Shown here: piece after piece, positions 5,620-24,369 of the stretch
How positions within the stretch are numbered: the stretch's first letter is position 1
How the letters are laid out: each line of letters starts with the position of its first letter
Assembly: GCA_031392925.1 (NCBI GenBank)
Contig: JANMVV010000049.1
Location: forward strand, 36,835 to 100,834
Source: Vicinamibacteria bacterium
GTDB lineage: Bacteria > Acidobacteriota > Vicinamibacteria > Fen-336 > JAGNNV01
DNA: 64,000 nucleotides
Direction: 5' to 3'
Notes under the pieces: generated by a model
Told to the model about the DNA's origin: nothing
Seen by the model: only the letters and a program-made list of their open reading frames with translations
Database searches by the model: none
Translations under genes and position numbers: made by a program

Positions 5620-8130
5620 ATGACCCAGAACGACTACGCCCTCCACACCATCCCGGTCAACATCGCCGACGAGATGAAGCAGTCCTACATGGACTACGCC
5701 ATGTCGGTAATCATCGGTCGGGCCCTGCCCGACGTTCGCGACGGCCTGAAGCCGGCGAATCGCCGCGTGCTCTACACCATGCACGAGATCGGTCTCGTCC
5801 CCGGCAAGCCCTTCCGAAAGAGCGCCGGCATCGTCGGCGACGTCATGGGTAAGTACCATCCTCACGGCGACGTGGCGGTCTACGACACCCTCGTGCGCAT
5901 GGCGCAGCCCTTCAACATGCGCGCCATCCTGGTCGACGGCCAGGGCAACTTTGGCTCGGTGGATGGGGATCGCGCGGCCGCCATGCGCTACACCGAGGCC
6001 CGGCTGACCAGGATCGCGGTCACCATGATGGCCGACCTCGACAAGGAGACGGTCGAGTTCCAGCCGAACTACGACGACCGACTGGAAGAGCCGACCGTGC
6101 TCCCGACCATCCTCCCCGCCCTTCTGGTGAACGGGTCTTCGGGCATCGCGGTGGGCATGGCCACGAACATCCCTCCCCACAACTTGAGCGAGGTCGTGGA
6201 CGGGCTCGTCTACCTGGTGGAGAACCAGAATCTTTCGGTGGATGAGCGCGTGGACGGCCTTCTTGAGCGCGTGACCGGGCCGGACTTCCCGACCGGCGGC
6301 TACATCCTGGGCAAGAGCGGGATCCGGCAGGCGTACCTCACCGGCCGCGGCTCCGTCACCATGCGCGCCCGTGCGGAAATCGAGAAGCGCAAGGGCGACA
6401 AGGAAGCGATCGTCGTTACCGAGATCCCGTTCCAGGTGAACAAGGCCCGGGTGATCGAGAAGATCGCCGAGCTGTGGCGTGAGAAGAAGATCGACGGCAT
6501 CACCGAGGTTCGCGACGAAAGCGATCGTCGCGGCATGCGCATGGTCGTCGACATCCGCAAGGGCGAGTCCGCCCAGGTCATCCTGAACCAGCTCTATAAG
6601 CAGACACAGCTTCAGGACACGTTTGGCATCAGCATGCTCGCCATCGTCCACAAGCGGCCGCGAGTGCTCTCGCTGCTCGAGGTGTGCGACTACTTCATCG
6701 GCTTCCGGCGGGAGGTTGTTCGAAAACGGATCGAGTTCGAGCTTCGCAAGGCCGAGGCCCGCGCCCATATCCTGCGCGGCTACGTCATCGCCCTCGACAA
6801 CCTCGATGCGGTGATCTCGCTGATCCGCAGCGCCCCGTCGCCCCAAGAGGCCCGAACCCAGCTCGTCGCACGATTCGTTCTTTCCGAGATTCAAGCGGTC
6901 GCGATTCTTGAGTTGCAGCTGCAGCGGCTGACCGGTCTCGAGCGGCAGAAGATCATGGACGAGCTCGCGGAGATCGAGGCCACCATCGCGCGGCTCAAGA
7001 AGATCCTCGGGAGCAAGCACGAGATCGACCTGATCGTGGTTGCCGAACTCAAGGCCCTCAAGGAGACCCACGGCGATGCCCGCCGGACCGAGCTGATCGA
7101 CGCCCCCGACGACATCTCGATCGAAGACACCATCGCCGACGAGGACGTGGCCATCTCGATCACCCACGACGGCTACATCAAGCGCACGCCGATGACTCTG
7201 TACCGCAGCCAGCGCCGCGGCGGTCGTGGCCGGGTGGGGATGAAGACCAAGGAAGAGGATTTCGTCGAGAACCTCTTCGTGGCCTCGACTCACTCCTACG
7301 TCCTGATCTTCACCAATCGAGGCCGCCTGTACTGGCTCAAGGTCCACGAGATCCCGGATGTCGGACCACAAGCCAAGGGCAAGGCCGTCGTCAATCTGGT
7401 GCGTCTGCAAGAGGGCGAGAAGATCGCCGCCTTCGTGGCCTGCCGGGATTTCGAGGCCAAGGGCTACATCGTGCTTGCCACCCGCAAGGGCGTCATCAAG
7501 AAGACCGAACTCGCTTCGTTCTCGAACCCGAGACCGGGCGGGATCATCGCCCTTGGGGTTGAAGACGACGATGCTCTCATCGACGCCATGCAGACCAGCG
7601 GCACGGATCAACTCCTGCTCTCCACGCGCGGAGGCATGGCCATCCGGTTCGAGGAGACGGATGTCCGTCCGATGGGCCGAACGGCTTACGGGGTCAAAGG
7701 CGTCGACCTCGACGAGGCCGACACCGTGGTGTCTCTGGAAGTGGTACGCGCGGCCGGCCGGGTCCTGACCGTGTGCGAAAACGGCTACGGAAAGTGCACG
7801 CCGATCGAGGAGTACCGGATCCAGGGGCGGGGCGGTAAAGGCATCATCAACATCAAGACCGAGGGCCGCAACGGAGCGGTGATCGGGGTGAAGTTCATGA
7901 GCGGAGATGAGGGCGTCATGCTCATCACCGGCAAGGGTATGATCATTCGAACACGATCTACCGAAATCTCGACAATGGGTCGGAACACGCAAGGCGTGCG
8001 ACTGATTCAGACGGACGACGGCGACCAGCTGGTTTCCATCGCCCGTCTCGCCGAGAAGGACGAGAGCACAGACACTACGGACACGGCTGAGGGCGAGGCC
8101 CCAACCGAAACGCCAGGGAGCGAATCATGA
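5620..8130 (+). CDS. gyrA: DNA gyrase subunit A
   Basis: 836 aa. [27 protein letters not shown]. Catalytic Tyr context [11 protein letters not shown]-terminal beta-pinwheel repeats and acidic tail. Starts 4 nt after gyrB. Confidence 0.97.
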
Positions 8131-18974: not shown

Positions 18975-19997
18975 ATGAGGCACGCGATTCGGACCCTGGC
19001 CGTCATTCTCCTTGCAATTCCTGTTCTGAATTGCGGGCCGGTTCAAGCGCGGACGGCGCTTCGAGAGGGGCACAAGCTCTACAAGGACGAGAGCTTCAAG
19101 AAGGCGATCGAACAATACGACATCGTCCTCGAGAAGGATCCTTCGAACATCGAGGCCACCTTTTACCGGGGAAGCTCGTACCACCAGCTCTTCCGGCCCG
19201 GAAAGGACGACACGAAGGTCAACCTGGAATCCGCGATCAAGGATTACAAGGTGGTTCTTGCGAACCCCCCTTCGGCCGGCGACAAGAAGTACCCTGTCCT
19301 TAAGAAGAACGCGCTCTCGGCCCTGATCGGAATTTACGCCGACGATCCGTATCGCGACTTCGACACCGCGATGAAGTACGCGGGAGAACTGACGAACAGC
19401 GAGCCCGGCAACCTGCAGAACCTGTTCGCCATGGCGAACCTCTACGAGAAGTTCGGCAAGGTGAACGAGGCGGAAGGAGCCTATAAGAAGGCCGTCGAAA
19501 TCGCCCCGAAGGATCCGAAGGCATGCGGAGCTCTGGCCGGCTTCTACAACAAGACCCTCTGGGACGAAAAGGGCGTGCCGGTTGGCGACGGCGGGGCCGG
19601 CCGGGGCCGTTTCGACGATGCCGTCAACCAGCTCAAACAGTGCGCCGAGCTCGATCCCAAGGATCCCAAGGGCTACTACACCGTGGCCACGTTCTACTGG
19701 GATCAGTGCTACCGCGGCCCCCTTCTCGACGACGCCCGCAAGAAGCAGCTCGCCGATGAGGGAATGGAGTTCGTGAACAAGGCGCTCGCCCTCAAGGGCG
19801 ACTTCGTAGAAGCCCTGATCTACAAGGGTCTGCTCCTCCGCGAGGAGGCCAAGCTGACCCGGAACCCGGCCACGCGCAACAGCCTCATGGAGGAAGCACA
19901 GGTCCTTCAGAAGCAGGCCGTCGAGCTCAAGAAGCAGCAGGACGCTGAGCTGGCTGAGAAGACGAAACAGGCGGCCGCGTCCGCCTCATCCAACTAG
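18975..19997 (+). CDS. TPR-repeat lipoprotein
   Basis: The ATG at 18975 gives MRHAIRTLAVILLAIPVLNC-G (lipobox). Multiple TPR units (e.g. AIEQYDIVLEKDPSNIEATFYRGSSY, AEGAYKKAVEIAPKDPKA). The track start at 18960 is a TTG five codons upstream. Confidence 0.85.
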   Translation: MRHAIRTLAVILLAIPVLNCGPVQARTALREGHKLYKDESFKKAIEQYDIVLEKDPSNIEATFYRGSSYHQLFRPGKDDTKVNLESAIKDYKVVLANPPSAGDKKYPVLKKNALSALIGIYADDPYRDFDTAMKYAGELTNSEPGNLQNLFAMANLYEKFGKVNEAEGAYKKAVEIAPKDPKACGALAGFYNKTLWDEKGVPVGDGGAGRGRFDDAVNQLKQCAELDPKDPKGYYTVATFYWDQCYRGPLLDDARKKQLADEGMEFVNKALALKGDFVEALIYKGLLLREEAKLTRNPATRNSLMEEAQVLQKQAVELKKQQDAELAEKTKQAAASASSN

Positions 19998-20047: not shown

Positions 20048-20422
20048 TCAGCCCGCCTTCTTCTTTGAAGTCTTGGGGGCCGCCGCCTTCTTTCTCGTTG
20101 TCCGGGTTCGGGCCTTCGCTCCCGATGGGGCTTTGACGGCGGACGACGGTTTCGCGCCGAGACGACGCACATAGGCCGACAGCATCTCGTTCTCGTAGGT
20201 GACCGAGTTGAGGAAGAGCGACTCGGCGAGGTAGGCGCGCTGCTCGGAGGCGCTCATCTGGTCAATGAGAGACAGGATCTGCGTGCGCATGGTCTCGAAC
20301 GAAGAATTGAGAACACTGCCGAGCGTGATCTCCTGGTAGAGCGCCTCGATGATGGCCAGAAGATCGCCATCGAGGGGAACCTCGAAGCCGGTGGACAGAC
20401 GGACGTTTCGTGCCTTCGACAT
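20048..20422 (-). CDS. Hypothetical protein with Lys/Ala/Pro-rich basic C-terminal tail
   Basis: 124-aa ORF. Its ATG shares one nucleotide with the STAS gene stop (TAATG at 20420-20424). Helical body, then tail ...AKPSSAVKAPSGAKARTRTTRKKAAAPKTSKKKAG (histone H1 / AlgP-like). Confidence 0.75.
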   Translation of the reverse strand: MSKARNVRLSTGFEVPLDGDLLAIIEALYQEITLGSVLNSSFETMRTQILSLIDQMSASEQRAYLAESLFLNSVTYENEMLSAYVRRLGAKPSSAVKAPSGAKARTRTTRKKAAAPKTSKKKAG

Positions 20423-20796
20423 TATTGCTTCCCGGCCGCGGGCCCGAAGGCCTTCAAGGCTTCCTCTTCCTCGCGGAAGATGGGCACTATCTTGTGGACG
20501 CCGGCCATGGACAACATGGTTTCGACCCGCGCCTGGGGGGCCAGGATGTGCAGCCCGCCCCCCTCATCCTTGGCCATACGGTAGATGTCCATGATGCAGC
20601 CGATGGTCGCGCTGTCGATGTAGGACACGGCCCCAAGGTCCAGAACCAGAGACCGGGCCCCGCCATCCACCGCTTCCTTCGTCTTTGCGACGAGGGTCGG
20701 GAGCAGCGGGTAGATAACTCGGGCGGTCTGAACGCGGATGATGGTCGCGTCGCCAATTTTCTCAATCGAAAGATCCACGGTCTTCTCCTTCAACAA
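20422..20796 (-). CDS. STAS-domain anti-sigma-factor antagonist (SpoIIAA/RsbV family)
   Basis: 124 aa. Family pattern ...ARSLVLDLGAVSYIDSATIGCIMDIY... with the conserved phosphorylatable Ser in the DS motif. Starts 12 nt after the ECF sigma gene. Confidence 0.85.
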   Translation of the reverse strand: MLKEKTVDLSIEKIGDATIIRVQTARVIYPLLPTLVAKTKEAVDGGARSLVLDLGAVSYIDSATIGCIMDIYRMAKDEGGGLHILAPQARVETMLSMAGVHKIVPIFREEEEALKAFGPAAGKQ

Positions 20797-20808
20797 ATGT
20801 CTTTCGTT

Positions 20809-21393
20809 TCAACGGGGCCCTTTGGCGCGGAGCGCTCTTGCGAGCTCCTCGCGACCCCGATTGATCCGGCTCTTGATCGTTCCGACCGGCAGGGAGAGTC
20901 TCACCGCCATTTCCTCGTAAGCGAGGCCCTTGAGGTCGCGCAGGACCACCGCCTCCCGGAGTTTCTCGGGTAGCAGGGCGAGGCCCTTTCGCAGGAACTC
21001 TTTTGCCTCCGAGGCTTCGATGGAGCGCAACGGATCGGTGGAGAGGGGAGCCACCGCCTGGTCGAAGGCCAGCCCATCGTCCACCATGGTTCGTTGTTCT
21101 CGCCGGGTGGAGCGATAGTTGTCGATGCAGTGGTTCCGGGCCACGGAGGCCAGCCACTTCGAAAAATCTGCAGAAACGTCGAACTTGCCGAGGTTTCTAA
21201 AGATGCGCAGGAAGATCTCCTGGGAAAGATCCTCGGCGCGGTCGTGGCGCCCGGTGAACTTGTACGCGATGTTGAACACCCGTCGCCGGTGCTTCACCAC
21301 CAGCGTCTCCCAGGCCGCGCCATCGCCGGCCAGGCACAGGGCCACCATAAGCACGTCCTCGGGCCGCGGCGCGGTAGGGGTTGTTGAAAGCAC
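20809..21393 (-). CDS. ECF-type RNA polymerase sigma-70 family factor
   Basis: 194 aa (GTG start). Region 2 (DRAEDLSQEIFLRIFRNLGKF, WLASVARNHCIDNYR) and region 4 HTH (LREAVVLRDLKGLAYEEMAVRLSLPVGTIKSRINRGR). Confidence 0.9.
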   Translation of the reverse strand: MLSTTPTAPRPEDVLMVALCLAGDGAAWETLVVKHRRRVFNIAYKFTGRHDRAEDLSQEIFLRIFRNLGKFDVSADFSKWLASVARNHCIDNYRSTRREQRTMVDDGLAFDQAVAPLSTDPLRSIEASEAKEFLRKGLALLPEKLREAVVLRDLKGLAYEEMAVRLSLPVGTIKSRINRGREELARALRAKGPR

Positions 21394-21452
21394 TTGGATG
21401 GGAGACTTTCCGGGGAAGTCGGTTCAGCCGCCAATAAGCAGAGGGCGCGGGC

Positions 21453-22259
21453 TCACTTCAACTCCGGCCGCCCCGCCTCGGTCCATGCGGTATACCAGAA
21501 GCTGCCCACGTCGGCGGCCGCGTTCGAGAGGAGATCGCTCAGAAGCCGGCCCGCCCGGAGTTCGAACGCCTCGAAGAAGGCGCCGGCGTAGGAGGACTTC
21601 CCGCGATAGGCCAGGCTGTCCGCGTACAGGATGTTGTCCACCCAGATGTGACTCCGCACCATGGTGGAGAAGATGTAGTCTCGCGGATTCTCAAGTAGCC
21701 GGGCCGCCTCCGGGTTGATCTTGAGGCGTCCCTCCATGTCTTCGGGCAGCCGGGCCCCGAGTCGCTTCGCGACGCCCGCCTGGTCCGTCTTCTGGCCGTC
21801 GAAATTTTCCGTCATGGCGAGAGGGTTGTTCAGGTCGGCGGCGAGAATGGCGACTTCGTCCGCGGCCAGGAGGATCTTCTCCTTGTCGCCCGCTTTGAAG
21901 GCCGCGAGGAGACGCGCCTGGGCTTCGAGAAGGAGGAAGGGGAGCCGGCCCACGAGCCGGATATCGGCCTTGGCCTTGACGCCCGCCTCATCCTGCGGCA
22001 CATCCTTGAACGGGAACGCTCCCAGGAGCTCCATCGCGAACCGTCGCCCCTCGGGCCGAGCCGGAGGATCCTCGTCGGGGGTGAGACTCGGCAGCTCGTA
22101 CTTGTGGTCCTCGAAGTACTTCTTCTGGCCCTTGGGCAGGGTATCGATCGCCTTCCGGATCACCAGACGGTATACCGAATCGCTCCACGCGAACGCGGAT
22201 CCAGGCATCAGGACCACGAGTACCACGAGGCCGAGCCGGGAGAGAGTGATCAGTTTCAT
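21453..22259 (-). CDS. Secreted hypothetical protein (possibly degenerate S1/P1-nuclease / zinc-PLC-like fold)
   Basis: The ATG at 22259 is preceded by GGAGG. Signal peptide MKLITLSRLGLVVLVVLMPGSAFA, and the mature protein starts with W. The fold assignment is tentative (see finding). Confidence 0.75.
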   Translation of the reverse strand: MKLITLSRLGLVVLVVLMPGSAFAWSDSVYRLVIRKAIDTLPKGQKKYFEDHKYELPSLTPDEDPPARPEGRRFAMELLGAFPFKDVPQDEAGVKAKADIRLVGRLPFLLLEAQARLLAAFKAGDKEKILLAADEVAILAADLNNPLAMTENFDGQKTDQAGVAKRLGARLPEDMEGRLKINPEAARLLENPRDYIFSTMVRSHIWVDNILYADSLAYRGKSSYAGAFFEAFELRAGRLLSDLLSNAAADVGSFWYTAWTEAGRPELK

Positions 22260-22291
22260 TGGTTCCTCCGAATGAACGGTTGTCGAAAACC

Positions 22292-23011
22292 CTATTCTGC
22301 GCGAGCCACCGTGATCGAACGAACCTCCCGCACTCCGTAGGCCAGCAAAGTCGCCGCGCACTCACGAAGGGTGGCCCCGGTCGTGGTCACGTCATCGACC
22401 AGAGTCACGGCGGCGCCCTTGAGGGTGAAATCGGAGCCGGCCGCGAAGGCGTTCCGGACATTCCGCCGCCGCTCGCCGGCCGAGAGGTCGGTCTGAGTCC
22501 TGGTGTTCCTGGTCCGGGCAAGACCGCTCGATACCCGCAGACCGCAGTCTCTGGCAAGCTCGCCTGCGAGCAGATGGGCCTGGTTGAATCCCCGGCGGCC
22601 TTCCCGGTCGGGATGGAGCGGTACCCCCACGAGCACGTCCGAGGCCTTCAGGATGCCCCGGCACCGCTCGCTTTTGAGGAGCCGGACGGCGAGTCGCGCC
22701 GCGGTCTTGTGCCGACCGCGGTACTTGAGAGCGACCACGCAAGCACGCAGCGGACCGGCGTAGGCTCCGAGGGAAACGCCCTCCAGGATTGGAGAACGGC
22801 CCCGCCGGCAGCGCCCGCAGTCTTCGCCCTCAGAACCCGGCAGAGGAGAACCGCAGCGGCATTGGGGCCCGGTGATCAGGGGAAGACTGTCCCAGCACTT
22901 CTGGCACAGGGGCGGGTCGTGGGCGGAAACCAGATCTCCGCACGAAACGCAGCCCGTGGGGAACAAGGCGCCCGCCAGGGCGTCACAGGTCCTTGTCCAG
23001 AAGAGAGTCAA
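22292..23011 (-). CDS. comF: ComF-family phosphoribosyltransferase-domain protein
   Basis: 239 aa (TTG start). N-terminal Cys4 zinc-finger pattern (CVSCG...CQKCW). C-terminal PRTase motif VTLVDDVTTTGATL. Confidence 0.85.
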   Translation of the reverse strand: MTLFWTRTCDALAGALFPTGCVSCGDLVSAHDPPLCQKCWDSLPLITGPQCRCGSPLPGSEGEDCGRCRRGRSPILEGVSLGAYAGPLRACVVALKYRGRHKTAARLAVRLLKSERCRGILKASDVLVGVPLHPDREGRRGFNQAHLLAGELARDCGLRVSSGLARTRNTRTQTDLSAGERRRNVRNAFAAGSDFTLKGAAVTLVDDVTTTGATLRECAATLLAYGVREVRSITVARAE

Positions 23012-23023
23012 TCCAGCCGCTTT

Positions 23024-23377
23024 CTAGATGATGCCGGCTTCAATCTTCTCCTGGCAGCTCAGGCAATGCTTGGCCCAGGGAACCGCCTCGAGGCGCTTGC
23101 GCTCGACGTCGTCACCGCACACGATGCACGCCCCAAAACGCTTCTCGTCGATCCGGACGATGGCGTCGTCGATCATCTGAATCTCGTCGCGCTCCTTGTT
23201 CGAGAGGCTGAACAGGAACTCCTTGGTGTAGGAATTGGCGGCTTTGTCGACCGGGTCATGGGAAACGTCGGAGTCGACCTGCTTGCCTTGCGAGCGAGTC
23301 TTGTCATATCCCTTCGTTATGTCGGTCTTCTGATCGACGAGGCGCTTCCGATAAAGCTTCAGCGTCTTTGTGTCCAT
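23024..23377 (-). CDS. dksA: DksA/TraR-family C4 zinc-finger RNA polymerase-binding factor
   Basis: The internal ATG at 23377 gives a 117-aa protein. Coiled-coil tip DPVDKA (DxxDxA as in DksA). CIVCG-x17-CLSCQ zinc finger. Colinear with E. coli DksA ...DPADRA...FGYCESCG...CIDCK. Confidence 0.85.
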   Translation of the reverse strand: MDTKTLKLYRKRLVDQKTDITKGYDKTRSQGKQVDSDVSHDPVDKAANSYTKEFLFSLSNKERDEIQMIDDAIVRIDEKRFGACIVCGDDVERKRLEAVPWAKHCLSCQEKIEAGII

Positions 23378-23430
23378 GTCCGATCTTCTCTCCTTGATCT
23401 TCGTCTTTCCACCACGACCCGCGTGATCGA

Positions 23431-24369
23431 TCACGCGATTCCAAATCGCTTGCATTTCTCCCAGAGGGACTTGCGCGAGATGCCCAGCGTTTTCGCGGCA
23501 TCCGCCTTTGTCCCCTCCGAGTGTTCGAGCACCCACAGGATGTAAACGCGTTCCAGTTCCTTCAGGGTTGGCTGTTGGGAATGGAGCGAACGCAAGACAG
23601 TATCAGCACTCAGCATGTGTTTGGGCAGGGACGAGGCCTCGAGGAGGCCGTCGCCATCATGCCGCAGGATGGCCCGCTCGATCGCCGACTGCAGTTCACG
23701 CACGTTTCCCGGCCACGGATAGGCGGAGAGGATCTGCCCCGCCGCCTCCGAGAAACCCGAGGCCAAAGTCTTCTTTCGTCGTCGCTCCGAGGCCAGGAAG
23801 GCGGTGGCCAAAGGCAGAATGTCTTCGACGCGCTCCCGCAGCGGCGGAATGGGAATCGTGATCACGCACAAGCGGTGGTAGAGATCGTCCCGGAACGTCC
23901 CCAGGGCGATGGCCTCCTTGAGCGATCCACGTGAGGTAGCCACGAAACGAACGTCCACCGGTCTCGCGACGCTGTCTCCGAGACGTTGAATCGTTCCGTC
24001 CTCGATGGCCCGAAGGAGTTTGGCCTGGATTGAAAGGGCCAGGTCCTCGACGTGATCGAGAACCAGAGTACCGCCGTTCGCCCGTTCCAGCCGTCCGCTC
24101 TGTGCCTCGAACGCATGGGTGAAGGCGCCGCGGGCGTGGCCGAAGAACTCCGAGTCGGCGAGAGACTCCGCGATGGCCCCGCAGGACAGAACCTCGTAGG
24201 GCCCCTCCCGTCGAGGGCTCAAATCATGCAGGGCCTCCGCGATCCGGCCCTTGCCGGAGCCGGTTTCACCCTCGATCACCACGGGCGCCGATGCGGCCGC
24301 CACCCGCGGCAGCCACGACGCCAGGTCCCGCATGGCCTTCGAGACGGCGATCAGGGGCTCTGGGTTCAA
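23431..24369 (-). CDS. Sigma-54-dependent enhancer-binding protein (AAA+ plus Fis-type HTH) without N-terminal regulatory domain
   Basis: The proposed TTG start at 24369 overlaps the rsfS stop (TTGA). LNPEPLIAVSKAMRDL runs straight into Walker A GETGSGKG. GAFTGA-like loop GAFTHA (24112-24129). Walker B GGTLVLDHVEDL. FRDDLYHRL, PPLRERVEDI, C-terminal HTH AAKTLGISRKSLWEKCKRFGI. The 38 residues upstream in the track ORF are Arg/Pro-rich and overlap rsfS. Confidence 0.85.
   Translation of the reverse strand: MNPEPLIAVSKAMRDLASWLPRVAAASAPVVIEGETGSGKGRIAEALHDLSPRREGPYEVLSCGAIAESLADSEFFGHARGAFTHAFEAQSGRLERANGGTLVLDHVEDLALSIQAKLLRAIEDGTIQRLGDSVARPVDVRFVATSRGSLKEAIALGTFRDDLYHRLCVITIPIPPLRERVEDILPLATAFLASERRRKKTLASGFSEAAGQILSAYPWPGNVRELQSAIERAILRHDGDGLLEASSLPKHMLSADTVLRSLHSQQPTLKELERVYILWVLEHSEGTKADAAKTLGISRKSLWEKCKRFGIA

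What the first reader, a model, noticed from the sequence alone, without database searches (positions are those of the whole stretch)
20048..21393. ECF sigma factor operon with a STAS antagonist and an unknown K-tailed protein instead of an anti-sigma factor
Seen:
- The three minus-strand genes are tightly packed. ECF sigma (20809-21393) is followed after 12 nt by a STAS protein with the conserved DS phospho-serine (20422-20796).
- The STAS stop shares a base with the ATG of a 124-aa protein (TAATG).
- That protein has no recognisable domain and ends in a histone-H1/AlgP-like tail (RKKAAAPKTSKKKAG).

Established: ECF sigmas are normally co-encoded with a membrane or zinc-binding anti-sigma. 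STAS antagonists normally work with a SpoIIAB/RsbW kinase-type anti-sigma on group-3 sigmas. Neither a zf-HC2/RskA-type anti-sigma, nor an HATPase kinase, nor a PP2C phosphatase is present in the window.

Inference: the 124-aa protein may be a new type of anti-sigma / partner-switching component, or a DNA-binding co-factor, for this ECF.
Basis: partly seen in the sequence, partly recalled or inferred. Interest (0 to 1): 0.62.

Follow-up and report, generated by a model that had tools for sequence, protein, structure and literature searches.

The report
ECF sigma, STAS, unknown partner operon
A common group of soil bacteria keeps a stress-type sigma factor in one tightly coupled operon with a phospho-switch (STAS) protein and a strongly conserved, unnamed 90-residue protein that is the best candidate for a new kind of sigma-factor inhibitor, although nothing yet shows that it binds the sigma.

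Summary
Three coupled minus-strand genes encode an RpoE-like ECF sigma, a STAS protein with an invariant Asp-Ser phospho-site, and a 124-aa protein ("K124") with no Pfam, NCBIfam, PDB or Foldseek match.

K124 belongs to a real family limited to Acidobacteriota. It occurs in 47 of 301 sampled genomes, 25 of 26 in the window's own class, and 486 species genomes, always as a single copy.

- **Pairing:** K124 directly follows a STAS gene in every locus examined.
- **Sigma link:** the ECF sigma lies just upstream in all 73 informative Vicinamibacteria-type loci and 25 of 30 phylum-wide loci, usually with overlapping stop and start codons.
- **Exceptions:** four other lineages keep STAS-K124 away from any sigma, beside a diguanylate cyclase or a hybrid kinase.
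- **Tail:** the lysine-rich tail occurs only in the window's subclade, so a DNA-binding role is unlikely.
- **Cis partners:** no kinase, phosphatase or zf-HC2 anti-sigma lies on the contig. RsbW-type kinases and PP2C phosphatases exist elsewhere in the genome.

An AlphaFold model of a natural STAS~K124 read-through fusion gave no confident docking.

My best reading, at about 40% confidence, is a partner switch with no kinase in cis, in which K124 sequesters the sigma and STAS antagonises K124. The logic resembles HsbA-FlgM. This would be a new variant of a known kind and needs interaction tests.

The parts
20809..21393 (-). RpoE-like ECF (group 4) sigma factor, 194 aa from GTG. An alternative ATG start at 21348 is preceded by GAGGA.
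   Evidence: Pfam Sigma70_r2 8e-19 and r4_2 2e-13. Only the superfamily model TIGR02937 exceeds its NCBIfam cut-off. The closest solved structures are SigE, AlgU-type sigma-H, SigW and RpoE, at 1e-19 to 4e-25. Region 2.2 keeps the usual AEDLSQE motif (sequence).
20422..20796 (-). Single-domain STAS protein of the SpoIIAA/RsbV type. The likely true start is the GTG at 20780, after AAGGAG.
   Evidence: Pfam STAS 3e-15. The closest solved structure is SpoIIAA at 1.7e-9. D61-S62 is invariant in 102 of 102 orthologues. The orthologous STAS domain models at pLDDT 93-98.
20153..20422 (-). Conserved acidic core of K124, residues 1-90. The model has a beta-hairpin (5-8, 14-17) and three helices (21-35, 42-54, 58-89). 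Invariant motifs are LDGD(17-20) and ESLFLN.V.YEN(67-78).
   Evidence: Family of 473 clusters and 179 representatives. Conservation. AF2 model. No Pfam, NCBIfam, PDB or Foldseek match.
20048..20152 (-). Lys/Arg/Ala/Pro-rich tail of K124 (residues 91-124) plus the stop codon. Predicted disordered and specific to this lineage.
   Evidence: pLDDT below 50 for residues 94-124. Long basic tails occur only in the window's subclade, 10 of 76 orthologues.
21394..21452 (-). 59-nt spacer between the conserved upstream gene and the sigma gene. No sigma-70-type promoter was detected here.
   Evidence: In other clades a TTGACx-N16-19-TAnnnT promoter precedes the sigma gene in 18 of 67 loci, against 0.14 expected from shuffles.
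21453..22361 (-). Upstream 302-aa secreted protein with no Pfam family. It is a conserved neighbour (dksA-comF-this gene-sigma) in part of the Vicinamibacteria and may be co-transcribed.
19969..19986 (-). Terminator-like hairpin downstream of K124, inside the 3' end of the convergent TPR gene. It is the likely end of the operon.
   Evidence: This is a consensus match only.

Best explanation
The three genes form one operon encoding a partner-switch-like control module for an RpoE-like ECF sigma factor, with no kinase in cis.

**Proposed mechanism (inferred).** The acidic, helical core of K124 binds and sequesters the sigma, acting as a soluble anti-sigma of a new family. The STAS protein, in one phosphorylation state of its invariant Ser62, binds K124 and frees the sigma. 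STAS phosphorylation would be set in trans by RsbW-type Ser kinases and PP2C phosphatases encoded elsewhere in the genome.

**Shown here.**
- Gene identities.
- Operon structure and translational coupling.
- Conservation of the trio and of the STAS phospho-site.
- Absence of known anti-sigma, kinase and phosphatase genes in cis, and their presence in trans.

**Inferred, not shown.** Every protein-protein contact, and the direction of the switch.
For: 1. STAS-K124 adjacency is universal. It holds in 30 of 30 phylum-wide loci and in every informative locus among the 80 genome loci.
2. The ECF sigma lies immediately upstream in 25 of 30 and in 73 of 73 loci. Stop and start codons overlap or nearly overlap: sigma/STAS by -4 in 22 loci, and STAS/K124 by -8 in 22 loci, otherwise -4, -1 or +2.
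3. D61-S62 of STAS is invariant in 102 of 102 orthologues, so phospho-control is retained even though no kinase is in cis.
4. The sigma is RpoE-like, a type normally held by a cognate anti-sigma, yet none is on the contig. In many clades the operon has a housekeeping-type promoter, 18 of 67 loci against 0.14 expected. That argues for post-translational control.
5. Residues 64-78 of K124 are conserved on nearly every position of a long helix, not on one face only. This is expected for a segment enclosed by a partner. The core is acidic, with mean net charge -4.5.
6. One complete genome of the same class (G122) lacks both K124 and a sigma orthologue, with a best hit of 5e-26. This is co-loss.
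7. Kinases and phosphatases are available in trans: three RsbW-type kinases, six SpoIIE-family (PP2C-type) phosphatase hits and seven STAS proteins.
8. There is precedent for a STAS protein antagonising a small anti-sigma that is not a kinase: HsbA-FlgM in Pseudomonas aeruginosa (PMC5085249; PMC8256260).
9. Rate covariation of the sigma with STAS (partial r 0.71-0.77) and with K124 (0.66-0.74) exceeds most neighbour controls. This is weak evidence.
Against: - No interaction is shown.
- An AF2 model of a natural STAS~K124 read-through fusion folded STAS at pLDDT 93-98 but left K124 at 52-80. That is lower than the 84-93 of the corresponding helices in the monomer model. pTM was 0.56, so there was no confident docking. 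The STAS part of that alignment had only 4 rows, and no interface read-out is available.
- K124 resembles no anti-sigma family. hhalign against FlgM and RseA gave probability 0.1%, and Foldseek found nothing with E below 3.
- In four other lineages STAS-K124 lies away from any sigma. There the nearest sigma relative is followed by its own membrane protein. The pair therefore does not strictly need an adjacent sigma.
- One covariation control (K124-ComF, 0.68) is as high as the test pairs.
- RpoE-like sigmas at E <= 1e-40 also occur in 55 of 254 genomes without K124, so the phylogenetic profile is not clean.
Confidence: 0.4

Rival explanations
1. STAS-K124 is a portable two-protein switch whose output differs between lineages: an ECF sigma, a diguanylate cyclase, or a hybrid kinase. 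K124 would be the regulator or adaptor of STAS rather than an anti-sigma. STAS, or the STAS-K124 pair, would act on the neighbouring output protein directly.
For: - The pair is the invariant unit.
- In G012 it directly follows a GAF-GGDEF gene. In G007 and G042 it precedes an HDOD/HisKA/HATPase/REC hybrid kinase. No sigma lies within 5 kb in either case.
- The invariant K124 motifs are kept in these lineages too.
- STAS proteins are known to bind cyclases directly, as HsbA-P binds HsbD (PMC5085249).
- Sigma-STAS rate covariation is the highest of the three pairs.
Against: - The AF2 fusion gave no confident STAS-K124 complex.
- Direct STAS binding to a free-standing ECF sigma has no precedent that I found.
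- The sigma linkage is overwhelmingly dominant: 73 of 73 and 25 of 30 loci.
Confidence: 0.25
2. The true anti-sigma is an unlinked RsbW-type Ser kinase, for example the orphan 152-aa kinase on contig C351. It would bind the ECF sigma and phosphorylate the operon's STAS, which is classical partner switching with the kinase in trans. K124 would be an accessory factor.
For: - The genome has two free-standing RsbW-like kinases and one HATPase-SpoIIE fusion.
- The C351 kinase is monocistronic, lying between aroA and a BamD-like gene.
- The STAS phospho-Ser is invariant.
Against: - The orphan kinase occurs in 267 of 301 genomes of the phylum, whether or not the trio is present, so there is no specific co-distribution.
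- This model does not explain why K124 is obligatorily coupled to STAS and so strongly conserved.
- To my knowledge, RsbW-type anti-sigmas are described for group-3 sigmas, not for RpoE-like ECFs.
Confidence: 0.12
3. STAS and K124 are merely co-transcribed with the sigma as regulon members or cargo, and do not control it. The sigma would be regulated by transcription, or by an anti-sigma encoded elsewhere.
For: - The fourth gene of the operon varies by clade: DUF1573 in 34 loci, a radical-SAM-like gene in 22, and a convergent TPR gene in 8. The operon therefore tolerates cargo.
- An orphan zf-HC2 protein exists on C429.
Against: - The C429 cluster belongs to a paralogous sigma in relatives. 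It is absent from most genomes that carry the trio.
- Overlapping stop and start codons persisting across hundreds of species suggest stoichiometric partners.
- In many clades the promoter is housekeeping-type rather than autoregulated.
Confidence: 0.1
4. K124 is a DNA-binding or nucleoid-associated co-factor of the sigma, acting through its histone-H1/AlgP-like tail.
For: The window's protein has a 34-aa Lys/Arg/Ala/Pro-rich tail.
Against: - Long tails occur in 10 of 76 orthologues, and many proteins end at residue 87-90.
- The conserved core is acidic.
- The tail is predicted to be disordered.
Confidence: 0.04

Closest known systems
HptB-HsbR-HsbA-FlgM-FliA pathway of Pseudomonas aeruginosa (PMC5085249; PMC8256260)
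   Same: A phosphorylatable single-domain STAS protein antagonises a small, helical anti-sigma that is not a kinase. The same STAS protein can also address a diguanylate cyclase. That compares with the GGDEF-STAS-K124 arrangement in one lineage.
   Different: - K124 shows no similarity to FlgM (hhalign probability 0.1%).
- The sigma here is an RpoE-like ECF, not sigma-28.
- HsbA is encoded next to its kinase/phosphatase HsbR, whereas here none is in cis.
- K124 binding is not shown.
RsbV-RsbW-SigB and SpoIIAA-SpoIIAB-SigF partner switching (Bacillus)
   Same: The STAS protein is of the SpoIIAA type. SpoIIAA is its best PDB match at 1.7e-9, and the phospho-Ser is invariant.
   Different: - There is no GHKL kinase/anti-sigma and no PP2C in the operon or on the contig.
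- The sigma is group 4, not group 3.
- An unrelated 90-residue protein occupies the position of the anti-sigma.
PhyR-NepR-EcfG (ECF15) partner switch of Alphaproteobacteria (PMC8999054)
   Same: An ECF sigma is held by a small soluble helical anti-sigma, which is removed by a phospho-controlled antagonist.
   Different: There the antagonist is a sigma-mimic fused to a response regulator, not a STAS protein. K124 matches no Pfam family at all. Phosphorylation chemistry would be Ser rather than Asp.
SipA / sigma-SsdA of Actinoplanes missouriensis (PMC10733313)
   Same: A STAS (antagonist) domain is wired directly to a sigma factor outside the classical three-gene module.
   Different: There the STAS domain is fused to the sigma and binds a kinase-type anti-sigma domain. 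Here the three proteins are separate and no kinase-type domain is present.
Bordetella btr locus: ECF sigma BtrS with BtrU/BtrV/BtrW (own knowledge; the locus is mentioned in PMC7498569, which I did not read in detail)
   Same: An ECF sigma is encoded beside STAS-based partner-switching proteins.
   Different: The btr locus includes the BtrW kinase and the BtrU PP2C phosphatase. Both are absent here.

Membership tests
ECF (group 4) sigma-70 family | Only the sigma-2 and sigma-4 domains are present, in a protein of about 200 aa | tested here: met
   Pfam Sigma70_r2 8e-19 and r4_2 2e-13, with no region 3. TIGR02937 scores 108 bits against a cut-off of 42.9.
ECF (group 4) sigma-70 family | Assignment to a named ECF group (ECF Hub HMMs) | not testable with these tools
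   No ECF Hub models are available. No NCBIfam equivalog reaches its cut-off. The nearest solved structures are SigE, AlgU, SigW and RpoE.
ECF (group 4) sigma-70 family | A cognate anti-sigma (zf-HC2/ASD type) encoded next to the sigma. This is typical, not strictly defining. | tested here: not met
   There is no zf-HC2 hit on contig C108. Five of the six zf-HC2 hits in the genome lie beside other sigma genes, and one (on C429) is an orphan.
STAS anti-sigma-factor antagonists (SpoIIAA/RsbV) | Single STAS domain | tested here: met
   PF01740 3e-15. SpoIIAA is the best PDB match. The orthologue models at pLDDT 93-98.
STAS anti-sigma-factor antagonists (SpoIIAA/RsbV) | Conserved phosphorylatable Ser after Asp | tested here: met
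   D61-S62 is invariant in 102 of 102 orthologues.
STAS anti-sigma-factor antagonists (SpoIIAA/RsbV) | Actual phosphorylation by a cognate Ser kinase | not testable with these tools
   This needs biochemistry. Candidate kinases exist in trans.
Canonical partner-switching module (STAS + GHKL kinase anti-sigma + PP2C) | An RsbW/SpoIIAB-type kinase in the same locus | tested here: not met
   All PF13581 hits lie on other contigs.
Canonical partner-switching module (STAS + GHKL kinase anti-sigma + PP2C) | A PP2C/SpoIIE phosphatase in the same locus | tested here: not met
   All PF07228 hits lie on other contigs.
FlgM anti-sigma-28 family | Sequence or profile similarity of K124 to FlgM | tested here: not met
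   hhalign of the K124 profile against E. coli FlgM gives probability 0.1%. No FlgM family appears among the Pfam hits listed for the 76 members; 25 of 54 weak families were shown.
Class I anti-sigma domain (RseA / zf-HC2 ZAS) | Sequence or fold similarity of K124 to an ASD | tested here: not met
   hhalign against E. coli RseA gives probability 0.1%. There is no zf-HC2 hit. Foldseek against PDB finds nothing with E below 3, although the model is only of moderate confidence.
Anti-sigma factors in the functional sense | Binds its sigma and blocks association with core RNA polymerase | not testable with these tools
Histone-H1/AlgP-like basic-tail proteins | The Lys-rich repeat tail is a conserved feature of the family | tested here: not met
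   The tail is present in the window, but long tails occur in only 10 of 76 orthologues.

The most novel reading that the evidence does not exclude
K124 founds a new structural class of soluble anti-sigma factor. With its obligate STAS partner it would form a minimal partner switch with no kinase in cis. In Vicinamibacteria and several other Acidobacteriota lineages that switch controls an RpoE-like ECF sigma. In other lineages it has been re-plugged onto c-di-GMP or two-component outputs.
Probability: 0.33. Interest if true: 0.78.

Novelty: new variant of a known kind. Interest (0 to 1): 0.6.

Why it matters
ECF sigma factors are the largest family of alternative sigma factors, and how the many groups without a recognisable anti-sigma are controlled remains an open problem.

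STAS-based partner switching has been tied to kinase-type anti-sigmas and group-3 sigmas. The main known exception is HsbA-FlgM.

This module occurs in hundreds of species, in one of the most abundant and least studied soil lineages. If the proposal holds, it would add three things:
- a new anti-sigma fold;
- a link from Ser-phosphorylation networks to ECF control;
- a compact, probably orthogonal three-part switch for synthetic biology.

The proposal can be tested directly with two-hybrid assays and in-vitro transcription using only three small soluble proteins.

Tried and rejected
- **Unpaired alignment for the STAS~K124 fusion.** MAFFT in every mode laid the STAS C-terminal halves onto K124. 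I fell back on an alignment that is deep for K124 and has 4 rows for STAS.
- **Natural domain fusions (Rosetta stone).** Long database proteins carrying the K124 domain are frameshifted or read-through assemblies, or over-extended starts. They are not real fusions.
- **Phylogenetic profile of the orphan RsbW-type kinase.** It is near-universal in the phylum (267 of 301), so it is uninformative.
- **Phylogenetic profile of the sigma.** RpoE-like paralogues blur it: 102 of 301 genomes have a hit at E <= 1e-40.
- **Orphan zf-HC2 / LiaF-TM / toastrack cluster on C429 as the missing anti-sigma.** In relatives this cluster is headed by a paralogous sigma. It is absent from 8 of the 11 trio-bearing genomes tested. 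I rejected it as a general explanation.
- **Fold and sequence searches for K124.** The PDB profile search gave a best E of 0.019, Foldseek a best E of 3.5, and Pfam across all 76 members only scattered coiled-coil noise. hhalign against FlgM and RseA found nothing.
- **Mirror-tree partial correlations.** These are suggestive at best. There were 24 taxa, and one control was as high as the test pairs.
- **ECF Hub supplements.** None are held for PMC7826278.
Full report
**1. Observation**

The minus strand of 20048-21393 carries three tightly packed ORFs exactly as described.

- **ECF sigma:** 20809-21393, 194 aa.
- **STAS protein:** 20422-20796, 124 aa, starting 12 nt after the sigma stop.
- **Third protein ("K124"):** 20048-20422, 124 aa. 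Its ATG shares a base with the STAS stop (TAATG), and it ends in RKKAAAPKTSKKKAG.

Pfam finds Sigma70_r2 (8e-19) and Sigma70_r4_2 (2e-13) in the first protein and STAS (3e-15) in the second. It finds nothing above cut-off in the third, and NCBIfam agrees.

Two small refinements follow from the sequence. The STAS gene more likely starts at the GTG at 20780, six bases after AAGGAG. The sigma may start at the ATG at 21348, which is preceded by GAGGA.

Whole-genome family searches put no zf-HC2, HATPase_c_2 or SpoIIE/PP2C hit on the window's contig.

**2. K124 is a real, restricted and unnamed family**

- A search of 5.8 billion clusters gave 473 relatives, all "hypothetical protein" where a name exists, from Vicinamibacteria, Acidobacteriota and Aminicenantes MAGs.
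- An exhaustive phmmer search of 1.84 billion representatives gave only 179 hits, essentially all 60-160 aa.
- Across 301 genomes sampled from the phylum, 47 carry it, always in one copy. That includes 25 of 26 genomes of the window's class.
- A scan of one genome per species found 486 loci.
- The conserved part is residues 5-90. Its invariant motifs are G12, LDGD (17-20), E26, I49, Q55, Y64 and ESLFLN.V.YEN (67-78).
- The core is acidic, with mean net charge -4.5.
Many orthologues stop at residue 87-90. A conserved DNA-binding role for the tail is therefore unlikely.

**3. Synteny**

- In 30 loci spread over the phylum, a STAS gene directly precedes K124 in all 30, and the ECF sigma precedes STAS in 25.
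- In 80 further species-level loci, every one of the 73 with enough upstream DNA has sigma-STAS-K124 in that order.
- The junctions point to translational coupling. Sigma/STAS overlap by 4 nt in 22 loci. STAS/K124 overlap by 8 nt in 22 loci, and otherwise by 4 or 1 nt or sit 2-5 nt apart.
- The fourth gene varies by clade: a secreted DUF1573 protein in 34 loci, a radical-SAM-like protein in 22, and a convergent TPR lipoprotein in 8, as in the window. The constant core is therefore the trio.
- The Asp-Ser of the STAS phospho-site is invariant in 102 of 102 orthologues.
- One complete genome of the same class (G122) lacks K124. Its best sigma hit is only 5e-26, against 1e-51 to 1e-70 in its relatives. 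The module appears to have been lost as a unit.

**4. Exceptions**

- Four genomes from other classes (G012, G007, G031, G042) keep STAS-K124 with no sigma within 5 kb.
- In G012 the pair directly follows a GAF-GGDEF gene. In G007 and G042 it precedes an HDOD/HisKA/HATPase/REC hybrid kinase.
- These genomes do encode close relatives of the sigma elsewhere. A tree shows two kinds.
  - A paralogous group sits outside the trio clade and is followed by classical zf-HC2 anti-sigmas.
  - A second group nests inside the trio clade (support 88/83, long branches). It is followed by B-box/DUF5683/LiaF-TM or LiaF-TM/DUF4097 membrane proteins.
- The invariant unit is therefore the STAS-K124 pair. The sigma is its dominant partner but not its only one.

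**5. Structure**

- The K124 monomer model comes from a 76-sequence alignment. It has a beta-hairpin (5-8, 14-17), three helices (21-35, 42-54, 58-89) and a disordered tail. Mean pLDDT is 67.8, rising to 84-93 for the last two helices.
- Foldseek against PDB found nothing with E below 3.
- A profile search of PDB sequences gave a best E of 0.019.
- Pfam scans of all 76 members gave only scattered coiled-coil noise.
- hhalign against E. coli FlgM and RseA gave probability 0.1%.
- To model a complex I used a locus (L124) where STAS and K124 lie in the same frame, separated by one TAG and eight codons. Reading through the stop gives a natural fusion with a linker of about 25 residues.
- MAFFT could not align unpaired STAS and K124 rows to this fusion. 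The alignment I used is deep for K124 but has only four STAS rows.
- In the result, STAS folds at pLDDT 93-98. The K124 part drops to 52-80, and pTM is 0.56. There is no confident docking. I treat this as inconclusive and mildly negative for a simple 1:1 complex between unphosphorylated STAS and K124.

**6. Trans factors**

- The genome has seven STAS hits, three RsbW-type kinases and six SpoIIE-family (PP2C-type) phosphatase hits.
- The three kinases are a complete RsbW-RsbV-RsbU-like cluster on C314, a STAS gene followed by a HATPase-SpoIIE fusion on C460, and an orphan 152-aa kinase on C351.
- Phosphorylation of the operon's STAS in trans is therefore feasible.
- The orphan kinase occurs in 267 of 301 genomes of the phylum, so its distribution says nothing specific about the trio.

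**7. Is the anti-sigma simply elsewhere?**

- Five of the six zf-HC2 hits in the genome lie beside other sigma genes. One, a 353-aa protein on C429, is an orphan. It is followed by a DUF5683/LiaF-TM protein and a LiaG-like toastrack protein.
- In relatives (G059, G278, G045) the same cluster is headed by a paralogous sigma.
- Eight of the eleven trio-bearing genomes tested lack the cluster.
- It is therefore not the general anti-sigma of the trio's sigma. In this particular genome, cross-talk from an anti-sigma that has lost its own sigma cannot be excluded.

**8. Transcription**

- In 18 of 67 loci a sigma-70-type promoter (TTGACx-N16-19-TAnnnT) lies within 150 nt upstream of the sigma gene. 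Shuffles give 0.14.
- The window's subclade has only a 59-nt spacer after the conserved upstream gene, and no such promoter.
- A housekeeping-type promoter argues that activity is set after translation, which requires an inhibitor.

**9. Mechanism**

The best-supported reading is a partner-switch-like module. K124 would sequester the RpoE-like sigma. STAS, depending on the state of Ser62, would bind K124 and release the sigma. Kinase and phosphatase input would come from unlinked genes.

This is the logic of HsbA-FlgM-FliA in Pseudomonas aeruginosa, where dephosphorylated STAS protein HsbA binds the small non-kinase anti-sigma FlgM (PMC5085249; PMC8256260).

- **Shown:** the operon architecture, the conservation, the phospho-site, and the absence of cis partners.
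- **Inferred:** all protein contacts.

Rate-covariation analysis on 24 taxa gave partial correlations of 0.71-0.77 for sigma-STAS, 0.66-0.74 for sigma-K124 and 0.47-0.63 for STAS-K124. Controls ranged from 0.16 to 0.68. This is compatible with the model but weak.

I put the main model at about 0.40. The rivals are:
- a portable STAS-K124 switch with variable outputs, at 0.25;
- an RsbW-type kinase acting in trans as the anti-sigma, at 0.12;
- plain co-transcription without a regulatory role, at 0.10;
- a DNA-binding co-factor, at 0.04.

**10. Comparison with what is known, and novelty**

Three papers were checked: the ECF reclassification (PMC7826278), the review of non-canonical ECF mechanisms (PMC8999054), and the review of STAS-only proteins (PMC8256260). 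The two ECF papers contain no occurrence of 'STAS', and the STAS-only review contains none of 'ECF' or 'extracytoplasmic'. Full-text searches found no description of this operon.

The module fails the membership test for a canonical partner-switching system, because it has no GHKL kinase and no PP2C in cis. K124 also fails the tests for every named anti-sigma family that I tested. It may still work like one of these systems.

Earlier notes of this scan describe the same operon in four other genomes, and one follow-up reached the same tentative reading. Those are repeats of the idea, not independent evidence.

- the detached lineages and their alternative neighbours;
- the placement of the detached sigmas in a tree;
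- the lineage-specific nature of the tail;
- the housekeeping-type promoter;
- the co-loss in G122;
- the exclusion of the C429 cluster as a general anti-sigma;
- the inconclusive fusion model.

**Verdict.** This is a real, widespread and undescribed variant of sigma-factor partner switching, built around a new protein family. Its mechanism is unproven but directly testable.

Noticed in passing
own genome G000 contig C429 (locus L135: 2264-3325, 3340-3855, 4055-5653): An orphan cluster holds a 353-aa zf-HC2 protein with a 155-aa N-terminal extension of unknown nature, a DUF5683/LiaF-TM membrane protein and a LiaG-like toastrack (DUF4097) protein. No sigma gene is next to it. In relatives (G059, G278, G045) the same cluster is headed by a paralogous RpoE-like sigma. 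This genome therefore seems to have lost or degraded that sigma while keeping its anti-sigma.
   Followed up: partly
L041 3448-5329 (G012); L042 1861-5966 and L044 1770-5821 (G007, G042): In non-Vicinamibacteria lineages the STAS-K124 pair lies directly after a GAF-GGDEF diguanylate cyclase gene, or upstream of an HDOD/HisKA/HATPase/REC hybrid kinase. No sigma is nearby.
   Followed up: partly
L125 2484-3056, L132 2345-3001, L126 1921-3072, L133 4048-5673: Sigma genes that nest within the trio clade but are detached from STAS-K124 are followed by membrane proteins. These carry either an N-terminal B-box-like zinc ribbon plus DUF5683 and LiaF-TM, or LiaF-TM plus a DUF4097 toastrack. They may be unconventional membrane anti-sigmas.
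   Followed up: no
L002 1441-1899 (own genome C351:25518-25973): A monocistronic 152-aa RsbW-type Ser kinase lies between aroA and a BamD-like lipoprotein gene. Relatives occur in 267 of 301 genomes of the phylum, which makes it a near-universal orphan partner-switching kinase.
   Followed up: partly
loci L057-L124, downstream of K124: The fourth gene on the same strand differs by clade. It is a small secreted DUF1573 protein in 34 loci and a 450-470-aa radical-SAM/SPASM-like protein in 22. In the window's clade a convergent TPR lipoprotein gene takes that position.
   Followed up: partly
window 21453-23536: The block dksA-like (23024-23536), comF-like (22292-23011), 302-aa secreted protein with no family (21453-22361), then the sigma gene, is syntenic across a large part of the Vicinamibacteria loci.
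   Followed up: partly
L059, L082, L094, L098, L114 (record titles): Contigs carrying this Acidobacteriota-specific trio are labelled Hyphomicrobium, Bifidobacterium or Acidimicrobiia in their MAG records. These are probably mis-binned or mislabelled bins.
   Followed up: no
L054 about 6250-6350; L120 about 2600-2700: Runs of N (masked or withheld sequence) lie just after the K124 core. They create artificial long ORFs in these loci.
   Followed up: no
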